Origin: a virus
Taxonomy: Duplodnaviria; Heunggongvirae; Uroviricota; Caudoviricetes
Reading direction: 5' to 3' (one strand)
DNA length: 44,719 nucleotides
Virus record (IMG/VR): IMGVR_UViG_2737471862_000003
Span: 1 to 44,719 of that record
The notes under the pieces are model-generated. The model did not search any database. It was not told the DNA's origin and saw only the letters and a program-made list of their open reading frames with translations. Below are positions 1-31,595 of the stretch, one piece after another; position 1 is the stretch's first letter; each line of letters begins with the position of its first letter. The position numbers were made by a program, and so were the translations under genes.

Positions 1-582
1 TTACTCTGCAGGTGAAGTCGGCCACTCAATATCAGGTGCAGTTGATGTATCAACACGGTTCAGCAATACCCGATACTTCTTCCAGGCTTCCAGCAACGAG
101 GTTTCTTCCTCCGTTGCAATTTCCAGATCTGCAGCATCCTGAAGCGGCGCAATATGCTCACTGGCTACCTGCATCAGGCTTTTTTTTGTTTCTTCCGCCT
201 CCCGGATCCGGAACAGTTTTTCTGCTTCCGTATCCTTCACCCAGGCTGTGCCGTTCCACTTCTGATATTCCCCTCCCGGCGATAACCAGGTAAAATTTTC
301 CGGTAACGGACCGAGTTCAGAAATAAATAATGCATCCCCTGATGCCACGTCATAGACGGTTTTACCCCGATGGTCTTCAACGAGATGCCACGATGCCTCA
401 TCACTGTTGAAAACAGCCACGAAGCCAGCCGGAATATCTGGCGGTGCAATATCGGTACTGTTTGCTGGCAGACCTGTATGAGGTGGAATGTATGCATCAC
501 CTTCACCAATAAATTCATTGGTTCCGGCCAGCAGATTATAAATTTTTATGGTCCGTGGTAGTTCACTCATTCTGAATGCCAT
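1..582 (-). CDS. tfa: tail fibre assembly protein Tfa
   Basis: 193 aa ORF whose translation ([53 protein letters not shown]...) matches lambda Tfa as I remember it. Its start overlaps the stop of the upstream tail fibre gene, and its stop codon is at the window edge. Confidence 0.9.
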
Positions 583-18849: not shown

Positions 18850-20410
18850 CGCCTTTTTCTCCCGTTGTCTGTCGGATCTGCTGTTGAAACGCGTCCTTTA
18901 TCCAGACCGGACGCGGAAGACCGGCAGCCTGTCGCTCCTGAGTTTCCCGTAGCTGCTGGCGGAAAATCTCCTGATAGTCATCCCCCATCAGGGCCAGCTC
19001 TTTCTCGTATGTACTCAGGCCGCCTTCAATGCGCATCACCGCTTCCTGCACTTCCTTAAGGCCATCAATCGCCATACGACCGGCACCAATCCACTCGGCA
19101 CGGCACCACCCGGAACGGGCCTCCCAGAATGAGAAACGGGATTTCGGCGGACGGATCACGCCACGAATAAGGGCTTCCTCCAGCCAGCAGGCAAACATCT
19201 GTGACGCCAGGCGACTGGCCACAAATTTTCGTTTTCCCATAAAATACCGCCACGACTCATTGGCGGATGCCCTGGCACTGGAATAACTGACCTGTGAATA
19301 ATCCCGGGAAAGCTGCTCATACGACACACCCAGTCCGGCAGCAATGTAACGTAACAGCGCCTTTTCCAGTTCAGAAAAACCATTATCCGCATTCTGGGCT
19401 GTCTGCAGATTCAGTGAATCTCCCGGGTAAAGATGCGGAATACGGACCCCGCCCAGTTTTACCGTATTGGTGGCGTAATAACGCGCGTAGCCTTTCATGA
19501 TGGTGTTCAGGGGATTTTTACCTCCATCTCCCACCCCGGCGATATATTCAAACGCTTTTTCCGAATCCAGTGTGGATTCAATCGTGGCGGCATACATGGC
19601 GCGAACCACCGCCGACTGCAGTTGCGTGGCCTGCAGTGTGTCGAGCATCTTGAGACGCTCCATTACAGAATAAAACTGGTTGGCCCCGCGGGTCTGCCCG
19701 TCTTCCTGTGGCTGAAACACATGGATCATTCCCGGTCGTCCGGAAGGCAGTGTTGCCGTAATTCGTGTCCATTTACTGACACCGTAGCCGGGCCAGTCAT
19801 CATCCTGAACATGGTAGGCCAGCGCTTTTCCGTGTCGGTTTATTTCCACCCCGGCACGCATAAAACGATCGCCGGTACCATAACCGGGTGTACTGACACG
19901 CTTCGGGCTGATGGTTTTGAATTTCGTCCGGAATAATGACGTGGATTCCGCATCCCATACGGGCTGGACAAAAATTTCACCGTTAAACGTATGGACCCCC
20001 ACCCCTTCACGAATGAATTCGGTAAACGAACGACGCCCTTCCACATCCATCGTACCAAACACCGGATCGCAGTATTCCATCCACGCCGCCTCAACATCTT
20101 CAATAAAAGCATGTGAATCTGCTTCCGACATCCCCAGCCAGCGCCAGTTGGGACGGTAACTCAGACGAAACATGTGCCCGACAATATGATCCTTATGAAT
20201 TTCCACTGCATTCGATGCAATACCGTTGTTACGGACCAGATCATCCGCGCGGGCGTTACCCAGATGAATGGAAGGTAAGAGCGCCACGTCGGCACTTTCC
20301 GGTGCAGGCAGCCATTCTGCCATTTGCCCACCGAACCCGGAACCACCACCAGAATATCCCATGCTTTGCCGTAAAGGCTGCCCATGAATATCCACCAGTT
20401 CCCCGTTCAC
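18839..20410 (-). CDS. B: portal protein B
   Basis: 523 aa, lambda B-like length and position between W and C. Overlaps the C start. Confidence 0.9.
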   Translation of the reverse strand: MNGELVDIHGQPLRQSMGYSGGGSGFGGQMAEWLPAPESADVALLPSIHLGNARADDLVRNNGIASNAVEIHKDHIVGHMFRLSYRPNWRWLGMSEADSHAFIEDVEAAWMEYCDPVFGTMDVEGRRSFTEFIREGVGVHTFNGEIFVQPVWDAESTSLFRTKFKTISPKRVSTPGYGTGDRFMRAGVEINRHGKALAYHVQDDDWPGYGVSKWTRITATLPSGRPGMIHVFQPQEDGQTRGANQFYSVMERLKMLDTLQATQLQSAVVRAMYAATIESTLDSEKAFEYIAGVGDGGKNPLNTIMKGYARYYATNTVKLGGVRIPHLYPGDSLNLQTAQNADNGFSELEKALLRYIAAGLGVSYEQLSRDYSQVSYSSARASANESWRYFMGKRKFVASRLASQMFACWLEEALIRGVIRPPKSRFSFWEARSGWCRAEWIGAGRMAIDGLKEVQEAVMRIEGGLSTYEKELALMGDDYQEIFRQQLRETQERQAAGLPRPVWIKDAFQQQIRQTTGEKGDAL

Positions 20411-23056: not shown

Positions 23057-23260
23057 AAAACATTTCCATATCAAATGCAGGGTCCGACATGGAAGTGCTC
23101 AAAAACGTCTTTTTCGGGCACTTTCATGTCGGACCTTTTACGGATGTGATTGATGAAAAAACAATGAGTTATACACGAGAAGTACCGACACGCTTTTTCC
23201 CGAAAAATTTTCATAAATAGCGAAAATCCGCGCCGCTGCCGCCCCGTGGCAGGCCACCCC
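23057..23260. other. cos site (cosB-cosN-cosQ region)
   Basis: The minus strand reads ACGGGGCGGCAGCGGCGCGGATTTTCGCTATTTATGAAAATTTTCGGG, closely resembling the lambda cos region (ACGGGGCGGCGACCTCGCGGGTTTTCGCTATTTATGAAAATTTTCCGG) immediately upstream of Nu1. The inferred cosN core is at about 23233-23244. Confidence 0.75.
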
Positions 23261-23781
23261 ACCGGAAGGACCCACACAAATGAGAGCATTTATCATTAAC
23301 ATTTACAGATAAGATGACGTACATCATTGAAACGCCATTCAGCCATATACAGGCAGCATTCGTAGTTGCACTCCGTAACTCTGCGACTAAGGTTAAAAAC
23401 ATGGCCCTCTTTTGCCACCGGCAAATCTTCAATGGATTTCCCCTGCCGGTTTTTTATTTTCGTCGATGTATAACATTGCATTTACATCAATAGCGGCTAT
23501 TGTCATTAGTATGTTGCATCAATGCATGGGTGGTATTGGCGGTCTTCGCCAGCCGGTTCTGTGTAGCTGCTCCCTGTGACCGGTTTTTTATTTCTCACAT
23601 TATCGCAGCCCCTCTGTGTGAAGGGCTGCTGTAATGCCTGCTGTTACTCAGTAACGACCGCGCCTTCCGGTAATTTCATACCGGCAAATACCGGACAGCC
23701 AGGTTATCAGGATCAGCCTTCAGGTTATTTTCTACAAACATAGTGTTCTCCTTTTGGGTACCCAGAGACATTCTGGGTCAT

Positions 23782-24006
23782 TCATGAAACAGGCAACAAC
23801 GTGGCTGTTACAATCTCCGCCATATTCGCGTTAAGATCACATTCAACAGAAATTTCTTCATCCGTGGCATCCACTTCATATGTCCGGGAATAACATTCCG
23901 TGCATTTACCACTGAAGATATCCTTAACCAGAACACGTCCACGCTGCAAAACCCTGAATGGAATCGTTCCGTTAAAGGGCTTTACGGTTACCAGTAATCT
24001 CTTCAT
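23782..24006 (-). CDS. hypothetical 74 aa protein immediately upstream of cos
   Basis: Internal ATG (MKRLLVTVKPFNGTIPFRVLQRG...) preceded by a strong GGAGG ribosome-binding site. No family recognised. Confidence 0.5.
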   Translation of the reverse strand: MKRLLVTVKPFNGTIPFRVLQRGRVLVKDIFSGKCTECYSRTYEVDATDEEISVECDLNANMAEIVTATLLPVS

Positions 24007-24168
24007 ATCCCCTCCGGATAAAAATGCCCCTTGCCGCCCGGGCAGTTGCTTGATTCGGCAAGATTTAGAATGAATAAGATAAAATTGGCACACGCAGCAG
24101 AATTTCATGCTTTCCGGACGCCGGCGCATCTTTCATTTTTCAGCAAAATATTCTGCTATTACAGGCGA

Positions 24169-24351
24169 TCAGTTCTGCATACACTGCCGAACACCATCAA
24201 TAAGCTGACAGACCTGAGACGCGGTATCGAAAAGCTGGCGCGCCTTATCCAGGCTGACGCATCCCACCAGGAAAAAAGGCACCAGTATCGCTACCAGTGC
24301 CCATTTCGCCGCTGTTCGCGGCGTTCTGTGTGTCCAGTGTTTTCGCTTCAT
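24169..24351 (-). CDS. small lipoprotein (60 aa; signal peptide with LVGC lipobox)
   Basis: MKRKHWTHRTPRTAAKWALVAILVPFFLVGC... The start lies 4 nt after the stop of the preceding small gene. Confidence 0.55.
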   Translation of the reverse strand: MKRKHWTHRTPRTAAKWALVAILVPFFLVGCVSLDKARQLFDTASQVCQLIDGVRQCMQN

Positions 24352-24355
24352 CTCA

Positions 24356-24490
24356 CTATCCACCAATCAATCCGGATAAGCTCAATACTCGCCAGGCGGT
24401 GGAAATGAAAATGGCAACCAACATTGCTGAAAATGAAAGACCAACAACCACACAGAGAATTCGCGCCAGTTTTATAATGCTATCTGACAT
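24356..24490 (-). CDS. small single-pass membrane peptide (44 aa)
   Basis: MSDSIIKLARILCVVVGLSFSAMLVAIFISTAWRV... with a G-rich ribosome-binding site. Tightly packed between two other small genes. Confidence 0.45.
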   Translation of the reverse strand: MSDSIIKLARILCVVVGLSFSAMLVAIFISTAWRVLSLSGLIGG

Positions 24491-24507
24491 ATTTACCCCT
24501 GCCCCAC

Positions 24508-24690
24508 TTACGATTTCACAGCAATGATCAATTTTGCCATCCCATACAGAATCGGAGACACAGCGATACCGACCGCCACCCACTTAATGGCAAAAGCCAC
24601 CGCTCTGCTGATGTCATCAGTTACAGGCGCTTTCAATTCAAGGCCGTTTTTCATAGTCAACCTCAACAGAATTCGTTTATACTTCTCCAT
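24508..24690 (-). CDS. small membrane protein (60 aa, C-terminal transmembrane segment)
   Basis: MEKYKRILLRLTMKNG...AIKWVAVGIAVSPILYGMAKLIIAV, with a GGGAG ribosome-binding site. First gene of a three-gene mini-operon. Confidence 0.5.
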   Translation of the reverse strand: MEKYKRILLRLTMKNGLELKAPVTDDISRAVAFAIKWVAVGIAVSPILYGMAKLIIAVKS

Positions 24691-24722
24691 GTTCTCCCTT
24701 GCTTACTCAAGGTCAGAAACAG

Positions 24723-24760
24723 AAAACCCCGAACTGTTCCCGCAGCCGGGGTTTTTGCTT
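24723..24760. terminator. bidirectional intrinsic terminator
   Basis: AAAACCCCG...CGGGGTTTTTGCTTTTT hairpin flanked by A-run and T-run, directly after the stop of the 93 aa gene. Coordinates approximate. Confidence 0.55.
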
Positions 24761-24761
24761 T

Positions 24762-25043
24762 TTATTTATCTGTATGGGCGCGACATCTTGCTATTTCATT
24801 CCGGGCTTCACTGTCGCCACGACAGATACAACGCGCCGTGTCACCGTTCAGTGTGATGATGTAGGCTTCATCCTCTTTTTCTACAGGAATGCACGGAATA
24901 TTCCCGTCCCGGCAATACTCAATCTTCGCTGCAAGATGAGTGTTACGCGGATAGAACTCCAGGCGGTACATATCCCCCAGGACATGCACTTCCTCAACAT
25001 GACGACCGTCTTCTGTTACCGTGATTTTCTTGAGTGCGTACAT
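24762..25043 (-). CDS. hypothetical 93 aa protein (Cys-containing, soluble)
   Basis: ATG start with a GGAGG ribosome-binding site and its own downstream terminator. No family recognised. Confidence 0.55.
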   Translation of the reverse strand: MYALKKITVTEDGRHVEEVHVLGDMYRLEFYPRNTHLAAKIEYCRDGNIPCIPVEKEDEAYIITLNGDTARCICRGDSEARNEIARCRAHTDK

Positions 25044-25074
25044 ACGTACCTCCGTTCTTTCGTTTTTGAGTAAT

Positions 25075-25098
25075 AAAAAAGGCCGCCGAAGCGACCTT
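25075..25098 (-). terminator. intrinsic terminator (UUCG tetraloop hairpin plus T-run)
   Basis: Minus strand reads GGTCGC-TTCG-GCGGCC followed by TTTTTT, downstream of the 68 aa gene. Coordinates approximate. Confidence 0.5.
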
Positions 25099-25122
25099 TG
25101 TCAGAATTATTCACACCTTATG

Positions 25123-25329
25123 TCAGGATGTATGGCAATCTCTGCAGCACCAGTAACATCCATTCACCCTCGTGTAACCCAGATTTTTTGCGGCCTTCAC
25201 TGCCGGCTCACATGAGCTAAACTCTCCAAGCTCTTTACGATTGTTTGCATCAGGAAGTCGAAAACATGTTTCTGTATGAACCTCATGATCGTTCTGATTA
25301 TCTGTAAGAGTGTGAACATAGTACTTCAT
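25123..25329 (-). CDS. hypothetical small Cys-rich protein (68 aa)
   Basis: Internal ATG with a GGAG ribosome-binding site. MKYYVHTLTDNQNDHEVHTETCF...GCYWCCRDCH suggests a possible metal-binding peptide. Confidence 0.5.
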   Translation of the reverse strand: MKYYVHTLTDNQNDHEVHTETCFRLPDANNRKELGEFSSCEPAVKAAKNLGYTRVNGCYWCCRDCHTS

Positions 25330-25418
25330 ACGTATTTCTCCTTTTGGTTGCGTACGCCCAGGAGAAATTAAACGCAAAATACACTTAACTCATTGATAAT
25401 GATCATTTTTAAATGCTA

Positions 25419-25965: not shown

Positions 25966-26256
25966 TCAGCGCCTTCGTAATACAAGGATTTTTGATACGT
26001 TCCCGCGTGCTCGTATCACCAGCACGCAGAACACCAGGTTAATCAGGACGACCAGCCAGTTACCGGGTGGAAAGCGACCACACAGATAACAAAGCGGCGC
26101 AAAGGCATAAAGCAGCATCAGCAGCCAGGCCAGCCACGACATCAGCGGTTTATGTCTCGACTCACCACGACGATAAAAAAAGAGCGTCAGCACGATAACC
26201 GTGCTTAACACCACATTCAGTAATCCGGGAAGGTTACTTAACATTACCGCCTCCAC
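25966..26256 (-). CDS. hydrophobic membrane protein, holin/antiholin-like
   Basis: 96 aa, almost entirely hydrophobic with two or three predicted transmembrane segments. Overlaps the 3' end of the upstream holin-like gene and abuts the endolysin. Confidence 0.55.
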   Translation of the reverse strand: MEAVMLSNLPGLLNVVLSTVIVLTLFFYRRGESRHKPLMSWLAWLLMLLYAFAPLCYLCGRFPPGNWLVVLINLVFCVLVIRARGNVSKILVLRRR

Positions 26257-26623
26257 CCCGCAGACGGGAGAACAGCCCGGATACCAGCGATGCGATATCC
26301 TGCTGGTGGATGAATGAGAGAATCTTCACCGACACCACCGATACCAGTACCGCGCAAAGTGCGTCGAGAGATGTGCTGTGGAGATTCAGTTTTTCAACCA
26401 GGTAAGACGCCATCACATCCGCCCCCAGCACGCCAACAATGAACGACACCAGAAAATGCGCTGCCACACGCCAGACAGAAATCTTCTGTGGTATCGTGGC
26501 CACAAACAGCGCCCCTGCGAATGCACCAAACACAATCCCGAAATCCGTTCCGGTAAACAGCCCGAATACCGTCGCCCCGCCGAGCGCCGCAGCCGTGCCG
26601 GAACCGGACAAGGGTTCAGACAT
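26234..26623 (-). CDS. putative holin (multi-transmembrane, 129 aa)
   Basis: Gly/Ala-rich transmembrane segments and the first gene of the lysis cassette. Assignment is by position and composition only. Confidence 0.6.
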   Translation of the reverse strand: MSEPLSGSGTAAALGGATVFGLFTGTDFGIVFGAFAGALFVATIPQKISVWRVAAHFLVSFIVGVLGADVMASYLVEKLNLHSTSLDALCAVLVSVVSVKILSFIHQQDIASLVSGLFSRLRGGGGNVK

Positions 26624-26642
26624 ACGTTTTTCTCCTGTAAAT

Positions 26643-26664
26643 AAAAAAGGGCCTCTGTCGGCCC
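26643..26664 (-). terminator. intrinsic terminator downstream of the AraC-family gene
   Basis: GGGCC-N6-GGCCC hairpin followed by a T-run on the minus strand. Coordinates approximate. Confidence 0.55.
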
Positions 26665-26800
26665 GTAAAAAAACACCCCGTCAAAGGCACCCGCAGATAC
26701 CTTTTGTGTGGCGCTATCTGATGTGATGTGCGCCGGACGTGGCGCGGATATAAAAAAGGCCCGCCGCAGCGAGCCTGTTTTCAATGAGTGCAAAATTCAA

Positions 26801-27544
26801 TTATTCTTGAGTAACACTTAAACTCATCTCATTGAATGCAGCCATCCTGTAACCTGCCGGTGTAACACCAAAATAACTCCTGAATACGCTGATAAAATAA
26901 GATGTAAAATTATAGCCACACTGAGCAGCGATTCTGTTGATGGCGCAACGAGATTGAGTCAACAGCATTGCTGCCATTCTCATTCTCTCTGTAAGCAACA
27001 ACTCACTGAAACAGGTGCCTTCTTCTTTCAGTCTTTTTTTTAACAAACTTTCACTGATACATAACCGCGAAGACACATCTCTCAGAGTCCAGTTTGCTGC
27101 AATGTCCGTACGAAACAATGCACTAAGCCTGTCACTAATATTGCCAATACACGCGGTCAGAAACGACGAAAACATTTTCTCTGATGAGAAAAACGCCAGA
27201 CACGAAAAGGAAAGCATTTCCGCTAAATTGTCCGTATGAATCTTTTCCTCACAAAGATAATCAATCAGGATGCCCATCAATTCTGCCTTGGGAAAACTCA
27301 CGCAAAGATATCGTGGTATTTGCCGGACTAAAACTACATCCTGTTTTTCGTCTCCACACAACAGGTAACGGATAATTGTCGATTCACTGAGACTTATTCG
27401 CCGAAAACATTCCGAAAAGGGCAATAACGATCCAGCTCCCCCCCTGACAAGAAGTGCACTACCACTTTCCAGAGAGAGCTCTTTTCCTTCAAAGAGCACA
27501 ACAAACGGGGAATGAACAAAAACAACAGAACAAGCTTCATTCAT
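26801..27544 (-). CDS. AraC/XylS-family transcriptional regulator (AppY/GadX-like)
   Basis: The C-terminal double helix-turn-helix AraC signature (LRDVSSRLCISESLLKKRLKEEGT.F...IAAQCGYNFTSYFISVFRSYFGVTPAGY) is clear. Start placed at the internal ATG. The gene is AT-rich relative to its surroundings. Confidence 0.85.
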   Translation of the reverse strand: MNEACSVVFVHSPFVVLFEGKELSLESGSALLVRGGAGSLLPFSECFRRISLSESTIIRYLLCGDEKQDVVLVRQIPRYLCVSFPKAELMGILIDYLCEEKIHTDNLAEMLSFSCLAFFSSEKMFSSFLTACIGNISDRLSALFRTDIAANWTLRDVSSRLCISESLLKKRLKEEGTCFSELLLTERMRMAAMLLTQSRCAINRIAAQCGYNFTSYFISVFRSYFGVTPAGYRMAAFNEMSLSVTQE

Positions 27545-27666
27545 ATCAATTGCCCTGACATTACTGGTCACAAGATAAGTATATATCGATTTACAAAAAT
27601 ACAAGCCGAAAGACCAGTATTCGCAACCACCAGCGCGTTTAACGTCCTGTACCGTTTTTCAGGCAT

Positions 27667-27689
27667 AAAAAAACCCGCTCAGTGGCGGG
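27667..27689 (-). terminator. intrinsic terminator downstream of the ORF6N gene
   Basis: CCCGCC-ACTGA-GCGGG hairpin followed by TTTTTTT on the minus strand. Coordinates approximate. Confidence 0.55.
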
Positions 27690-27767
27690 TTTAAGCTGTT
27701 TGGCGTAGTAACCACTCTTAACAGGATATTCAACTTTTTACGATCGTAAAGCGTTCGGGGAAAATTT

Positions 27768-28256
27768 TTAAAACCGTTCCAGAGTGCATACCATCGCATC
27801 GGCGGGTAGTTTTTCCGTGAAGTCGACCTGACCGTGTTTATCGAAGTGGATCAGTAATGCGCATCCATCATTTTGGGTTGGGGTGTTTTGTGCTGCTGGT
27901 GGTTGTTTTTGGCTGAAATAACAGTCTTCCAGTTTTTCGAACACTTCCCACGCCTGATCGGTTTCCAGCATTTTGGCGTGACGGGCTGCTCCGCGTTCTG
28001 TCCAGAGGATGAGGTGCTTTGTACGCGGTGCAACTAAGTTACTTTGAGTAACCTTGTTCTTAAATTCCCGCAACTCAGCCCCTTCCAATTTGAAGTAGTG
28101 TTTCCCACAAACAAAACGCTCGGCATTGCGTGTATAGTTCACTTTGATGTTATTAGTTTCGGTGCCATAAAGTTGTGCCAAAAGCTCGGTAGTAATGACA
28201 GGGATTTGGTTATGGGTGATCGGGGAAAGAGTTTCAACTGAGATTTGAATAGCCAT
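27768..28256 (-). CDS. ORF6N/KilA-N-like phage regulatory (antirepressor-like) protein
   Basis: N-terminus (…IPVITTELLAQLYGTETNNIKVNYTRNAERFVCGKHYFKLEGAELREFK…) resembles the ORF6N DNA-binding domain. Family assignment is from memory. Confidence 0.55.
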   Translation of the reverse strand: MAIQISVETLSPITHNQIPVITTELLAQLYGTETNNIKVNYTRNAERFVCGKHYFKLEGAELREFKNKVTQSNLVAPRTKHLILWTERGAARHAKMLETDQAWEVFEKLEDCYFSQKQPPAAQNTPTQNDGCALLIHFDKHGQVDFTEKLPADAMVCTLERF

Positions 28257-28412
28257 AGGATGATCCTTTTTCTATGTGAATCATCACCACTGCTGACGCC
28301 AATCAGTATGGTGGTGAACTGTGCAGGGTTGGCGTAACCGGGAAAAAGGAACCGGCGCGGATCGCTCCGCCCCCACACAGCCCACCATTGAGATGTGACA
28401 GTGCAAACGACA

Positions 28413-28434
28413 ATAAAAAAGACGCTGGCGCGTC
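28413..28434 (-). terminator. tR'-like intrinsic terminator downstream of the late promoter
   Basis: GACGC-TGGC-GCGTC hairpin plus a T-run on the minus strand, about 60-70 nt downstream of the candidate late promoter. Coordinates approximate. Confidence 0.55.
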
Positions 28435-28495
28435 TGTTGTCGCCTTTTTCATCCGGGACGCCAATCCCGACGCCAGATTTTGCTGGCGCGTGAGG

Positions 28496-28525
28496 AATAT
28501 AGCCCCGGACAATGTGTCTGGTCAA
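28496..28525 (-). promoter_or_regulatory. candidate late promoter pR' (TTGACC-N18-TATATT) overlapping the Q stop
   Basis: The sigma70-like -35/-10 pair is read directly from the minus strand immediately 3' of Q. The position matches lambdoid pR'/qut. Confidence 0.45.
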
Positions 28526-28529
28526 GCTC

Positions 28530-28916
28530 CTACATGATTCGTTCTACGTATCTGTCCATCTCCAGTCGGATATCAAGCATCATCAACATGCCATCAATAA
28601 CCCCTTCCGCTTTCTGCAGGCGCTTGCCAATACAAGTATCCGAACACCCATGCTTTCGTGCCAACCCCATAAAAGTCATTCCACCTACGTAATAATCCAC
28701 CAACAAATCGTGCAAATCCTGATTTTTCTTGTTCAACCGGGCCATACAGCCACAAATTATCATTGCATCATCATCAGAACACTGAGGGCGTGATTTCACT
28801 TTCGGCGGGATTAATCCTTTAAAACCAGCAGCGATTGACGCCCATGACACATCTTCGTGATTGTTCGCAGCCCATGATCCCCACCGCTCCATAACCTGCT
28901 GAATATCACGCACCAT
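28530..28916 (-). CDS. late gene antiterminator Q (QuuD / phage 82 Q family)
   Basis: [35 protein letters not shown]...[16 protein letters not shown]... resembles the DLP12 QuuD-type Q antiterminator. Its start overlaps the RusA stop. Confidence 0.8.
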
Positions 28917-29283
28917 CGTTATCACCTGTAATTTCGTAAATCTTCACGCCCAACCGCCCACCAGGAACAGGCAGTCCGCGCACAATATTGATTTCATCAA
29001 ACTGCTCGTCGTCTATAAGTAGTCCGGCATGCGTCAGCGCATCCAGTGGTGCTTTCAGAATATTGTCCAGGTCACGACGGCGCTTATCCGGCGGCTCTGC
29101 AATAATTTTTATTGCCAGCCTTCCGGACAGGTTTAATTTCAGTCGCTGCTGGCGAACAATAAGCGCCACATCACGGCGATAACGCTCACCGGCTTTTGAT
29201 ACAAAATATGTGCTGCCACGACGTCGCCAGTAGGTGTTCACCGTTGGCGGGTAAGGCAAAACAAATTCTATGCGTTCAGTCAT
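28906..29283 (-). CDS. rusA: RusA Holliday junction resolvase
   Basis: 125 aa with [13 protein letters not shown]...DLDN..K...DALT motifs typical of RusA. Adjacent to Q, as in DLP12. Confidence 0.85.
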
Positions 29284-31102: not shown

Positions 31103-31258
31103 TTACTCCTCAGATTCGTAAGCTGTGAAGACAGCGACCTCCGTCTGGCCGGTTCGGATTCGTACCTCGCAGAGGTCTTTCCTCGTTACCAGTGCCGTCA
31201 CTATGACGGTTAAACAGATGACGATCAGGGCGATTAACATCGCCTTTTGCTGCTTCAT
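31103..31258 (-). CDS. hok: Hok/Gef-family type I toxin
   Basis: MKQQKAMLIALIVICLTVIVTALVTRKDLCEVRIRTGQTEVAVFTAYESEE is essentially the HokD/RelF sequence. AAGGAG ribosome-binding site. Confidence 0.9.
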   Translation of the reverse strand: MKQQKAMLIALIVICLTVIVTALVTRKDLCEVRIRTGQTEVAVFTAYESEE

Positions 31259-31315
31259 AGCCTGCTTCTCCTTGCCTTTCGGCACGTAAGAGGCTAACCT
31301 AGATTTGCCGTTCAT
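31103..31315 (-). CDS. mok: Mok (modulator of killing) overlapping reading frame
   Basis: An in-frame N-terminal extension of 19 codons begins at an upstream ATG, as in hok/mok/sok loci. Confidence 0.6.
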   Translation of the reverse strand: MNGKSRLASYVPKGKEKQAMKQQKAMLIALIVICLTVIVTALVTRKDLCEVRIRTGQTEVAVFTAYESEE

Positions 31316-31360
31316 AGATTGAGCCTCAGATTAATGTTAAGCGTCTTGCCGGACGCGTAA
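31285..31360 (+). ncRNA. sok: predicted Sok-like antisense RNA (position inferred, not located)
   Basis: In hok/sok systems the antitoxin RNA is encoded antisense to the mok translation-initiation region. Here the position is inferred from that architecture only; no promoter or terminator was located. Confidence 0.25.
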
Positions 31361-31595
31361 TGTTAACTGGGGCTTTTCTCTGTCTGCCTTACAGTGGCAT
31401 GCCCGAGGCAGACAGCCTCAAGCACCCGCAACAATCTTACCGACACCGATAAGAAAACGCTATTTTTATTGCCAGAACCTTCTGCCCAGGCTAATGTATC
31501 CGCGTCAGAACGGCGCAATGCGCTCGCCTGAGATACGTTTACTTGTCATTGGTGGCAACAGATAACGGCAATTGTTGTTTCTGTTTGTTTCCTTC

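What the first reader, a model, noticed from the sequence alone, without database searches (positions are those of the whole stretch)
26643..28256. AraC-family regulator and ORF6N-like protein occupy the slot where Stx phages carry stx, each with its own terminator
Between the late promoter and terminator downstream of Q and the holin gene there are two independently terminated cargo genes. The AraC-family regulator is AT-rich. Such a regulator could be expressed from the lysogen and rewire host transcription; prophage-encoded AraC-like regulators affecting acid resistance or secretion are known in pathogenic E. coli. Induction of the late operon would raise its dose sharply.
Basis: partly seen in the sequence, partly recalled or inferred. 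Interest (0 to 1): 0.55.

Follow-up and report, generated by a model that had tools for sequence, protein, structure and literature searches.

The report
Prophage AraC regulator in stx slot
A Shiga-toxin-less lambdoid E. coli prophage carries an uncharacterised relative of the known prophage acid-resistance and virulence regulators PatE and PsrA just after its late promoter and terminator, where related phages carry tRNA and toxin genes; the neighbouring ORF6N gene is not cargo but a slightly truncated antirepressor controlled by small RNAs.

Summary
All lie on the minus strand, between a Q21-type Q gene and the holin genes.

- **The signal right after Q is not the late promoter.** It is the gene for the sRNA IsrK. 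IsrK is followed by a C4-type antisense RNA whose loops pair with the ribosome-binding site of the ORF6N gene. This is a Gifsy-1 AnrP / phage P1 immI-type antirepressor module. A 72-bp in-frame deletion has removed its conserved last 24 codons.
- **The true late promoter, qut site and tR' lie at 27750..27669, downstream of ORF6N.** They align with the annotated PR' region of VT2-Sakai and phi24B.
- **Only the AraC gene sits between tR' and the holin.** Its downstream terminator is the one found immediately 5' of stx2A in Stx2 phages. The toxin site itself is empty.

The regulator (247 aa, GC 42%) is intact, with dN/dS of 0.32-0.39. It is 37-43% identical over its full length to PatE, PsrA, YdeO and GadW. 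It travels as a terminator-bounded cassette behind at least six kinds of upstream neighbour. PsrA occupies the same slot in O157 Sakai.

Verdict: a new member of a known kind. Its regulatory targets and its expression in the lysogen are inferred, not shown.

The parts
28530..28925 (-). Q antiterminator, Q21/QuuD type
   Evidence: Pfam Phage_antitermQ at 5.6e-52. 80% identical to DLP12 QuuD. Matches the Q21 structures 6P18 and 6JNX at E=7e-7.
28496..28525 (-). Promoter of the isrK module (TTGACC-N18-TATATT); not the Q-specific late promoter
   Evidence: Promoter scan scores 10 of 12. The same TTGAC...TATATT promoter precedes isrK in Gifsy-1, which has an unrelated Q, and in the nin region of phi24B and phiSTEC1589, where no Q is adjacent.
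28415..28489 (-). isrK sRNA with its own terminator (28435..28420). It contains the C4 targets b1 (28464..28458) and a1 (28450..28443).
   Evidence: Rfam RF01394 at 79.4 bits (gathering threshold 50). c4-a1b1 (RF03163) at 52.2 bits (threshold 46.7). Complementarity to C4 shown.
28307..28392 (-). C4-type antisense RNA; loop a' is nt 43-51 and loop b' is nt 58-64
   Evidence: Rfam RF01695 at 74 bits (gathering threshold 45). Fold energy -43.5 kcal/mol, z = -4.4, with both loops unpaired.
28264..28302 (-). Downstream C4 targets b2 (28302..28296) and a2 (28272..28264). Target a2 covers the Shine-Dalgarno sequence of ORF6N.
   Evidence: Exact 7-nt and 9-nt complements to the C4 loops. Loops and targets co-vary across five modules.
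27768..28256 (-). ORF6N-domain antirepressor of the AnrP/Ant type, 162 aa, lacking the conserved last 24 residues (deletion junction around 27775..27768)
   Evidence: Pfam ORF6N. 96% identical to the 186-aa proteins P0016 and P0017 over residues 1-162. L028 is identical except for 72 extra nucleotides. RefSeq marks the gene as a pseudogene. 60% identical to Gifsy-1 AnrP.
27723..27750 (-). Late promoter PR' (-35 TTTACG at 27750..27745; -10 TATCCT at 27728..27723), followed by the qut/pause region around 27722..27700
   Evidence: Aligns base for base with the annotated 'putative late promoter' and 'putative Q-utilization' features of VT2-Sakai and phi24B. The same segment lies upstream of essD in DLP12, in Sakai Sp4 and in a Stx2g prophage, all of which have QuuD-type Q.
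27671..27692 (-). tR', the late-operon terminator hairpin. It is also the 5' boundary of the AraC cassette.
   Evidence: Terminator scan. Aligns with the annotated tR' of VT2-Sakai and phi24B. Homology between AraC-carrying prophages begins here.
27545..27670 (-). AraC leader, 126 nt, GC 0.40. Contains a conserved core with a TATACT -10-like hexamer (27583..27578).
   Evidence: Conserved together with the gene in alleles that are 82-86% identical. No site reaches 9 of 12 in the sigma-70 scan.
26801..27544 (-). AraC/XylS-family regulator, 247 aa, of the PatE/Psr/YdeO/GadW clade
   Evidence: Family assignment. dN/dS 0.32-0.39. Present in 65 of 5426 complete E. coli genomes and in 46 IMG/VR contigs.
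26718..26777 (-). Terminator after AraC (hairpin 26776..26757) plus about 40 nt that are homologous to the sequence immediately 5' of stx2A
   Evidence: 80% identical to phi24B (annotated 'terminator upstream of the Stx-genes'), a Stx2k phage and a Stx2g prophage. Fold z = -4.3.
26649..26717 (-). Empty toxin site plus the holin-proximal terminator (26664..26649)
   Evidence: The terminator and holin start align with the pre-holin region of the Stx2k phage. Upstream of that point the homology stops.
26234..26623 (-). First holin (Phage_holin_8), the first lysis gene of the late operon
   Evidence: Pfam match at 3.7e-22.

Best explanation
The stretch between Q and the holin is a mosaic of two separate units.

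**Unit 1 (28525..27768): an antirepressor module inserted between the Q gene and its late promoter.**
- The module's own promoter makes the 75-nt sRNA IsrK.
- Read-through past the IsrK terminator yields a C4-type antisense RNA and the ORF6N (AnrP/Ant-like) mRNA.
- The two C4 loops pair with one target pair inside IsrK and with a second pair just before ORF6N, covering its ribosome-binding site. ORF6N translation is therefore RNA-gated, as in phage P1 immI and in the Gifsy-1 isrK-anrP locus.
- In this window the protein has lost its conserved last 24 residues through a 72-bp in-frame deletion, so it is probably weakened or dead.

**Unit 2 (27692..26757): a terminator-bounded moron.** It comprises the tR' hairpin, a 126-nt AT-rich leader, a 247-aa AraC-family regulator and a second terminator. 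It sits directly downstream of the true late promoter PR' (27750..27723).

**How the regulator is expressed and what it does (inferred).**
- In the lysogen, PR' fires constitutively and stops at tR'. The regulator is then made only at a low level, either through tR' leakage or from a weak, non-consensus promoter in its leader.
- It acts like its relatives PatE, PsrA and PsrB. That is, it binds AT-rich host promoters through its two helix-turn-helix motifs and most likely feeds into the GadE/HdeA acid-resistance circuit.
- After induction, Q-modified RNA polymerase reads through tR', the AraC gene and both downstream terminators into the lysis genes. This gives a burst of regulator mRNA.

**Shown:** the sequence anatomy, the homologies and the co-variation. 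**Inferred:** expression in the lysogen, the targets, and the activity of the truncated ORF6N protein.
For: **isrK / C4 module**
- isrK, C4 and the a1b1 targets all score above the Rfam gathering thresholds.
- The C4 loops match four target sites in the order expected for antiparallel pairing. The 9-nt a2 site lies on the ORF6N Shine-Dalgarno sequence.
- Loops and both target pairs change together in five independent modules.
- The module promoter is conserved next to unrelated Q genes and where no Q is adjacent.
- The Gifsy-1 locus has the same order, and its IsrK-to-AnrP-to-AntQ control has been shown experimentally (PMC4825925).

**ORF6N truncation**
- Supported.

**PR' / qut / tR'**
- The window segment aligns with annotated features of VT2-Sakai and phi24B.
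- The same segment co-occurs with QuuD-type Q in DLP12, Sakai Sp4 and a Stx2g prophage. In each case a different insertion separates it from Q.

**AraC gene**
- Pfam and NCBIfam matches, with YdeO the best full-length model.
- 40% identical to PatE, 37% to PsrA, 37% to YdeO and 40% to GadW over about 230 residues. The SESLLKK and SYFISVF recognition helices are shared.
- dN/dS is 0.32-0.39.
- The cassette lies behind at least six different upstream contexts.
- PsrA lies between Q and the tRNA genes in Sp4, and a PsrB-like gene lies upstream of tRNAs and stx2k.
- Published functions of PatE, PsrA and PsrB are summarised in PMC10877973.
Against: - No near-consensus sigma-70 promoter lies between tR' and the AraC start codon. 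Divergence in the leader (Jukes-Cantor distance 0.16-0.26) is about equal to synonymous divergence (0.16-0.26). Conservation therefore does not prove a promoter.
- Identity to every characterised regulator is only 31-43%, and the gene is roughly equidistant from all of them. Target specificity cannot be read from homology.
- The N-terminal domain could not be modelled with confidence (pLDDT below 55).
- No expression data exist for this window.
- The PR' -10 element in the window is TATCCT, and its -35 is weak. Its activity is inferred from homology alone.
- Whether the 162-aa ORF6N protein keeps any activity is unknown. The deleted form persists in 12 complete genomes and about 14 viral contigs, so it is at least tolerated.
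Confidence: 0.62

Rival explanations
1. The promoter and terminator directly after Q are PR' and tR', and both ORF6N and AraC are cargo genes inside the late operon. IsrK would then be the equivalent of the lambda 6S RNA.
For: The promoter lies 5 nt after the Q stop codon and is the best sigma-70 match in the region. Gifsy-1 also has isrK directly after its Q gene.
Against: The same promoter, isrK and C4 leader occur next to an unrelated Q82-type Q and also in nin regions with no Q adjacent. Q proteins load only at their own binding element, so this promoter is not Q-specific. In contrast, a segment aligning with the annotated PR'/qut/tR' of Stx phages lies downstream of ORF6N. That segment accompanies QuuD-type Q in four other prophages.
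Confidence: 0.08
2. The AraC gene is silent in the lysogen, through H-NS silencing and the block at tR'. It matters only as part of the late transcript, or it is a neutral passenger. In that case it acts, if at all, during lytic growth.
For: No consensus promoter is present. The gene is AT-rich (GC 0.42), as is typical of H-NS-silenced DNA. It is always oriented with, and embedded in, the late transcription unit.
Against: The reading frame is intact and under purifying selection (dN/dS 0.32-0.39) in many phage backgrounds. The homologues PsrA, PsrB and PatE, in comparable prophage positions, have deletion phenotypes in lysogens (PMC10877973; PMC13502914).
Confidence: 0.25
3. The AraC gene is a decaying pseudogene.
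For: Shortened or fragmentary copies exist in the protein database (P0006-P0011). One IMG/VR locus matches only residues 1-139.
Against: The window copy is full length. It aligns end to end with PatE and YdeO with few gaps and is 99% identical to a 241-member protein cluster. dN/dS is well below 1.
Confidence: 0.04

Closest known systems
PsrA (ECs1087/Z1789) and PsrB of E. coli O157:H7 prophages
   Same: AraC/XylS regulators of about 245 aa, encoded on lambdoid prophages between Q and the lysis genes and on the late-operon strand. A PsrB-like copy lies upstream of tRNAs and stx2k. They share the HTH recognition-helix motifs.
   Different: Only 37% identical. PsrA is followed by the ileZ-argN-argO tRNA genes, whereas here the tRNA genes are absent. 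The function of PsrA is known (it activates gadE and represses type III secretion; PMC10877973), whereas the function here is untested.
PatE (Z0321/ECs0287), Sp1/CP-933H
   Same: Same length (247 aa) and 39-40% identical end to end. Also prophage-borne.
   Different: PatE lies at the right end of a prophage remnant, after the tail-fibre genes, not in the Q-to-holin slot.
YdeO, GadW and GadX, chromosomal acid-resistance regulators of E. coli
   Same: YdeO is the best full-length profile match (147 bits, residues 2-230). Identity is 37-40%. The GadX DNA-binding domain is the best match among solved structures (3MKL, E=8e-23).
   Different: The score is far below the curated equivalog cut-offs (348 for YdeO, 500 for GadX), so this is a paralogue and not an orthologue. 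It is phage-borne.
Gifsy-1 isrK-orf45-anrP locus (Hershko-Shalev et al. 2016, PMC4825925)
   Same: Same gene order: Q, then isrK, then a C4-like RNA, then an ORF6N-domain antirepressor. All RNA elements score above the Rfam thresholds in both loci. The proteins are 60% identical.
   Different: The Q proteins are unrelated. No isrJ follows in the window. The window protein lacks the conserved C-terminal 24 residues. The stop codon of the small upstream ORF lies about 28 nt before the ORF6N start codon instead of overlapping it.
Phage P1/P7 immI (c4-icd-ant)
   Same: An antisense RNA with two loops pairs with one target pair upstream (a1/b1) and one downstream (a2/b2). The downstream pair covers a ribosome-binding site ahead of an antirepressor gene.
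   Different: Here the downstream gene is an ORF6N-domain protein and the module sits in a lambdoid phage next to Q. RNA processing and Rho-dependent polarity were not examined.
PR'-qut-tR' cassette and stx site of 933W, VT2-Sakai and phi24B
   Same: PR'/qut/tR' is 81-82% identical and collinear. The terminator immediately 5' of stx2A is present (80% identical). The short PR' transcript corresponds to the StxS sRNA region (PMC7547250).
   Different: No tRNA genes and no stx genes are present. An AraC gene fills the interval, and Q is separated from PR' by the antirepressor module.

Membership tests
AraC/XylS family | C-terminal domain of about 100 aa with two helix-turn-helix motifs | tested here: met
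   Pfam HTH_18 at 53 bits (cut-off 33.6) and HTH_AraC at 49 bits (cut-off 26.6), covering residues 158-233. AlphaFold pLDDT is 74-95 over residues 140-240.
YdeO (NCBIfam NF007407 equivalog) | Score at or above the curated cut-off of 348 bits | tested here: not met
   147 bits, although the match covers the full length. The gene is a paralogue.
GadX (NCBIfam NF007432 equivalog) | Score at or above the curated cut-off of 500 bits | tested here: not met
   98.9 bits, covering the DNA-binding domain only.
PatE/PsrA/PsrB group of prophage-encoded regulators of the acid-resistance (GAD) and type III secretion (LEE) circuits | Prophage-borne protein of about 245 aa with full-length homology to the group | tested here: met
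   37-40% identical over about 230 residues with the same architecture. Lies on a lambdoid prophage.
PatE/PsrA/PsrB group of prophage-encoded regulators of the acid-resistance (GAD) and type III secretion (LEE) circuits | Activates gadE/hdeA and/or represses type III secretion | not testable with these tools
   Requires transcriptomics, reporter assays or EMSA.
Moron (a terminator-bounded extra gene in a phage operon) | Present or absent among otherwise related phages; base composition differs from the flanks; has its own terminator | tested here: met
   The slot is empty in DLP12 and holds other cargo in Sp4 and Stx2g. GC is 0.42 against 0.51. Terminator at 26776..26757. The cassette occurs behind at least six upstream contexts.
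Moron (a terminator-bounded extra gene in a phage operon) | Own promoter active in the lysogen | tested here: inconclusive
   No site scores 9 of 12 or better in the sigma-70 scan. There is only a conserved TATACT with a poor -35.
isrK (Rfam RF01394) | Covariance-model score at or above the gathering threshold, with a promoter and a terminator | tested here: met
   79.4 bits (threshold 50). Promoter at 28525..28496 and terminator at 28435..28420.
C4 antisense RNA system (Rfam RF01695 and RF03163) | C4 fold, plus a1/b1 targets upstream and a2/b2 targets downstream that cover a ribosome-binding site | tested here: met
   74 and 52.2 bits. Target sites. Compensatory changes in five modules.
AnrP/Ant-type ORF6N antirepressors | N-terminal ORF6N domain | tested here: met
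   Pfam match at 1.2e-21. Residues 1-116 are nearly invariant against Ant and AnrP, with dN/dS 0.05-0.14.
AnrP/Ant-type ORF6N antirepressors | Complete C-terminal region (the conserved tail of the 186-aa forms, or P22_AR_C in the 225-aa forms) | tested here: not met
   24 codons are deleted. No P22_AR_C match.
Q21-type Q with its cognate PR'/qut/tR' | Q homologous to Q21/QuuD, and a homologous late promoter and terminator ahead of the lysis genes | tested here: met
   for Q. for PR'/tR'. Q-dependent antitermination itself was not testable.

The most novel reading that the evidence does not exclude
This AraC lineage is a fourth, uncharacterised branch of the prophage PatE/Psr regulators. It has no promoter of its own and is expressed through leakage of tR' from the constitutive late promoter. 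Its dose would then report the PR'/Q state of the prophage to host acid-resistance or colonisation circuits, in E. coli mostly from cattle and farm sources. In parallel, the retained isrK/C4 pair could act in trans on the antirepressors of co-resident or incoming Stx phages, because its leader is 96% identical to that of many Stx-phage ant genes. That would be RNA-level cross-immunity between a stx-less prophage and Stx phages.
Probability: 0.15. Interest if true: 0.55.

Novelty: new member of a known kind. Interest (0 to 1): 0.33.

Why it matters
Prophage AraC-like regulators (PatE, PsrA, PsrB, AppY) are known to rewire acid resistance and type III secretion in E. coli. This window adds an untested lineage:

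- It occurs in about 1% of complete E. coli genomes.
- It always rides in the late-operon leader, next to sequences that flank stx in toxin phages.
- Recombination across those shared flanks could move it into or out of Stx phages.

The corrected anatomy also matters for annotation. An sRNA-gated antirepressor module can sit between Q and its late promoter. The first promoter and terminator after Q should therefore not be assumed to be PR' and tR'.

Tried and rejected
1. **The isrK promoter as PR'.** This was my first working assumption. I rejected it after finding the same promoter and leader next to an unrelated Q and in nin regions, and a PR'/tR' homologue downstream of ORF6N.
2. **ORF6N truncated by a recombination joint with PR'** (suggested). 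Rejected when L028 showed the identical arrangement with 72 extra nucleotides. The change is an in-frame deletion between TTTAAA microhomologies.
3. **AlphaFold model of the AraC protein from a 9-sequence alignment.** The DNA-binding domain is confident, but the N-terminal 130 residues have pLDDT of 33-57. I ran no fold search because the matches would be meaningless.
4. **Scan of one genome per species with the AraC protein.** No confirmed relative was found. The family was seen only in E. coli sources.
5. **Sigma-70 scan of the AraC leader.** Nothing scored 9 of 12 or better. Leader conservation is no greater than synonymous-site conservation.
6. **Weak Rfam hits** (Trp_leader, rsmX, STnc100 at E = 0.03-0.5). 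These overlap the terminators and I treated them as chance.
7. **The Q21 structural preprint.** The held text gives no PR'21 sequence, so the Q-binding element could not be located by motif.
8. **Bender et al. 2012, the PatE paper.** Not held in the library.
9. **Pfam scan of the small ORFs between the endolysin and the terminase.** No hits.
Full report
**What is there.** The window is a lambdoid E. coli prophage. The block 26600-28530 is 99.3-99.5% identical in 12 of 5426 complete E. coli genomes, and the sources listed for them are mostly cattle or farm. All relevant genes are on the minus strand. In order they are:
- DUF968, RusA and Q (28925..28530);
- the ORF6N gene (28256..27768);
- the AraC-family gene (27544..26801);
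- two holins and a GH108 endolysin.

Strong terminator hairpins with T-runs lie at 28435..28420, 27692..27671, 26776..26757 and 26664..26649. The scan found 8 terminator-like sites where shuffles give 2.7 +/- 1.7. The AraC gene has GC 0.418, against 0.511 for the window.

**The ORF6N gene is part of an RNA-gated antirepressor module.** Between Q and ORF6N, Rfam finds three elements above their gathering scores:
- isrK (28489..28415; 79 bits, threshold 50);
- the a1/b1 targets of C4 (52 bits, threshold 46.7);
- a C4 antisense RNA (28392..28307; 74 bits, threshold 45).

A promoter, TTGACC-N18-TATATT (28525..28496), ends 7 nt before isrK. The two unpaired loops of the predicted C4 fold are nt 43-51 and nt 58-64 (z = -4.4). 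They are exactly complementary to two site pairs:
- TTGGCGT and GAAAAAGG inside isrK;
- TTGGCGT (28302..28296) and GAAAAAGGA (28272..28264) downstream of C4.

The last site covers the Shine-Dalgarno sequence of ORF6N.

In five independent modules the loop sequences differ, and both target pairs change in step with them. The modules are the window, phi24B, Gifsy-1, phiSTEC1589 and L019. This is the architecture of phage P1/P7 immI (from established knowledge). It is also the architecture of the Gifsy-1 isrK-orf45-anrP locus. There, IsrK activates translation of the antirepressor AnrP, which in turn raises expression of the Q gene antQ (PMC4825925).

The window protein is 60% identical to AnrP. 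Over residues 1-116 it is nearly invariant against the Ant proteins of Stx phages, with dN/dS of 0.05-0.14.

**ORF6N is truncated.** A large family of ORF6N proteins of about 184-195 aa (most often about 186) ends in a conserved tail...ERFKFYLEQHGWIVARKEQLVERLMRF. The window protein is 96% identical to them over residues 1-162 and then stops. An IMG/VR contig (L028) is identical to the window from ORF6N through AraC, except that it has 72 extra nucleotides flanked by TTTAAA microhomology. The window allele is therefore an in-frame deletion of the last 24 codons. RefSeq marks it as a pseudogene. Whether it keeps any activity is unknown.

**Where the late promoter really is.** The module's promoter and leader are conserved in several settings:
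- after an unrelated Q82-type Q in Gifsy-1;
- in the nin regions of phi24B and phiSTEC1589;
- at a prophage end in L019.

So it is the module's own promoter and not the Q-specific late promoter. The window's Q is of the Q21/QuuD type: 80% identical to DLP12 QuuD, and a match to the Q21 structures at E=7e-7.

The segment 27750..27669 aligns base for base with the annotated 'putative late promoter', 'putative Q-utilization' site and tR' terminator of VT2-Sakai and phi24B (81-82% identical). The same segment lies upstream of essD in DLP12, in Sakai Sp4 and in a Stx2g prophage. All of these have QuuD-family Q, separated from the segment by a different insertion in each case:
- nmpC in DLP12;
- a CAAX protease gene in Sp4;
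- three reverse-strand genes in the Stx2g prophage.

Here the insertion is the isrK/C4/ORF6N module.

**The AraC cassette and the stx slot.** Homology among AraC-carrying prophages starts at the tR' hairpin. It runs through a 126-nt leader, the gene and the next terminator.

That terminator (26776..26757) and about 40 nt after it are 80% identical to the sequence immediately 5' of stx2A in phi24B, a Stx2k phage and a Stx2g prophage. In phi24B it is annotated as 'terminator upstream of the Stx-genes'. The last terminator and the holin start match the pre-holin region of the Stx2k phage. So the toxin site itself (about 26717..26665) is empty. The AraC gene occupies the position that tRNA genes and PsrA-type genes hold in relatives.

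This is directly comparable to known cases. PsrA (ECs1087) lies between Q and ileZ-argN-argO in Sakai Sp4. A gene 89% identical to PsrA lies upstream of the tRNA genes and stx2k.

Among 46 IMG/VR contigs with this AraC gene, about 14 share the window's arrangement. In the rest, the same cassette lies behind other kinds of Q gene, including lambda-type and Gifsy-1-like, or behind a porin gene.

**What the regulator is.**
- It is a 247-aa AraC/XylS protein.
- Its best full-length profile match is YdeO (147 bits), far below the equivalog cut-off of 348.
- It is 40% identical to PatE, 37% to PsrA, 37% to YdeO, 40% to GadW and 31% to AppY.
- Within the DNA-binding domain identity is 43-54% to all of these relatives except YbcM, with shared recognition-helix motifs.
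- The GadX DNA-binding domain and Rns are its nearest solved relatives.
- It is intact, with dN/dS of 0.32-0.39 against alleles that are 82-86% identical.
- It is present, at 80% coverage or more, in 65 of 5426 complete E. coli genomes.

It is thus a distinct, uncharacterised lineage of the clade that includes the prophage regulators PatE, PsrA and PsrB. Those regulators activate gadE/hdeA and repress type III secretion (PMC10877973).

**Mechanism: shown versus inferred.**
- Shown: the gene order, the RNA families, the loop-target co-variation, the PR'/tR' and stx-flank homologies, the deletion, the purifying selection and the mobility of the cassette.
- Inferred: that PR' is constitutive and stops at tR' in the lysogen, by analogy with Stx phages (PMC7547250).
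- Inferred: that Q-modified polymerase must transcribe AraC on its way to the holin, which follows from the architecture and would give a burst of regulator mRNA on induction.
- Inferred: that lysogenic expression comes from tR' leakage or from a weak promoter. No consensus promoter was found. There is only a conserved TATACT at 27583..27578, and leader conservation is no greater than synonymous divergence.
- Inferred: that the targets are acid-resistance promoters, by homology only.

**Verdict.** The finding is real. The ORF6N part is misread. This is a new member of a known kind and of moderate interest.

Noticed in passing
window 27716..27665 (minus strand): The short PR'-to-tR' transcript predicted here is the homologue (81-82% DNA identity) of the region that produces the Hfq-binding sRNA StxS in Stx phages. 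StxS activates RpoS. I did not check whether the rpoS-pairing seed is conserved.
   Followed up: partly
window 28257..28512; compare Stx phages PA28, P27 and others: The isrK/C4 leader is 96% identical to the leader of the ant gene in many Stx1 and Stx2 phages. C4 loop and target sequences fall into distinct co-varying specificity classes. Prophages that share a class could therefore cross-regulate each other's antirepressors in trans.
   Followed up: partly
L001:18943-19130 and 19595-19783: A related prophage (strain E21845/O/A) shares this Q-ORF6N-AraC block. It carries two further isrK-C4 pairs in its early region, by the Rha-family and ash-family genes. The window itself has only one pair.
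   Followed up: no
window 31253..31427 (minus strand): Rfam matches the sok antitoxin RNA (110 bits). The matching RefSeq prophage annotates a hokD toxin gene at the corresponding place.
   Followed up: no
window 41..239 (minus strand): Rfam match to IS009 (224 bits, gathering threshold 117) at the very start of the window.
   Followed up: no
window 23075..25418: The 2.3 kb between the endolysin and the small terminase subunit holds only small ORFs with no Pfam match. No spanin (Rz/Rz1) gene was recognised. The closest RefSeq relative has Bor, a DUF1398 gene and an IS3 element in this interval.
   Followed up: partly
L050:4558-4733; L018:9746-9936; L008:9363-9568: The sRNA STnc100 follows the AraC gene in one class of carrier prophages. 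It also follows the tRNA genes in Sakai Sp4 and follows stx2 in phi24B. It is a further conserved landmark of the stx slot, and it is absent from the window.
   Followed up: no
hits H1-H12: Most of the 12 complete genomes with the whole block come from cattle, farm slurry, soil or farm environments; one comes from a human.
   Followed up: no
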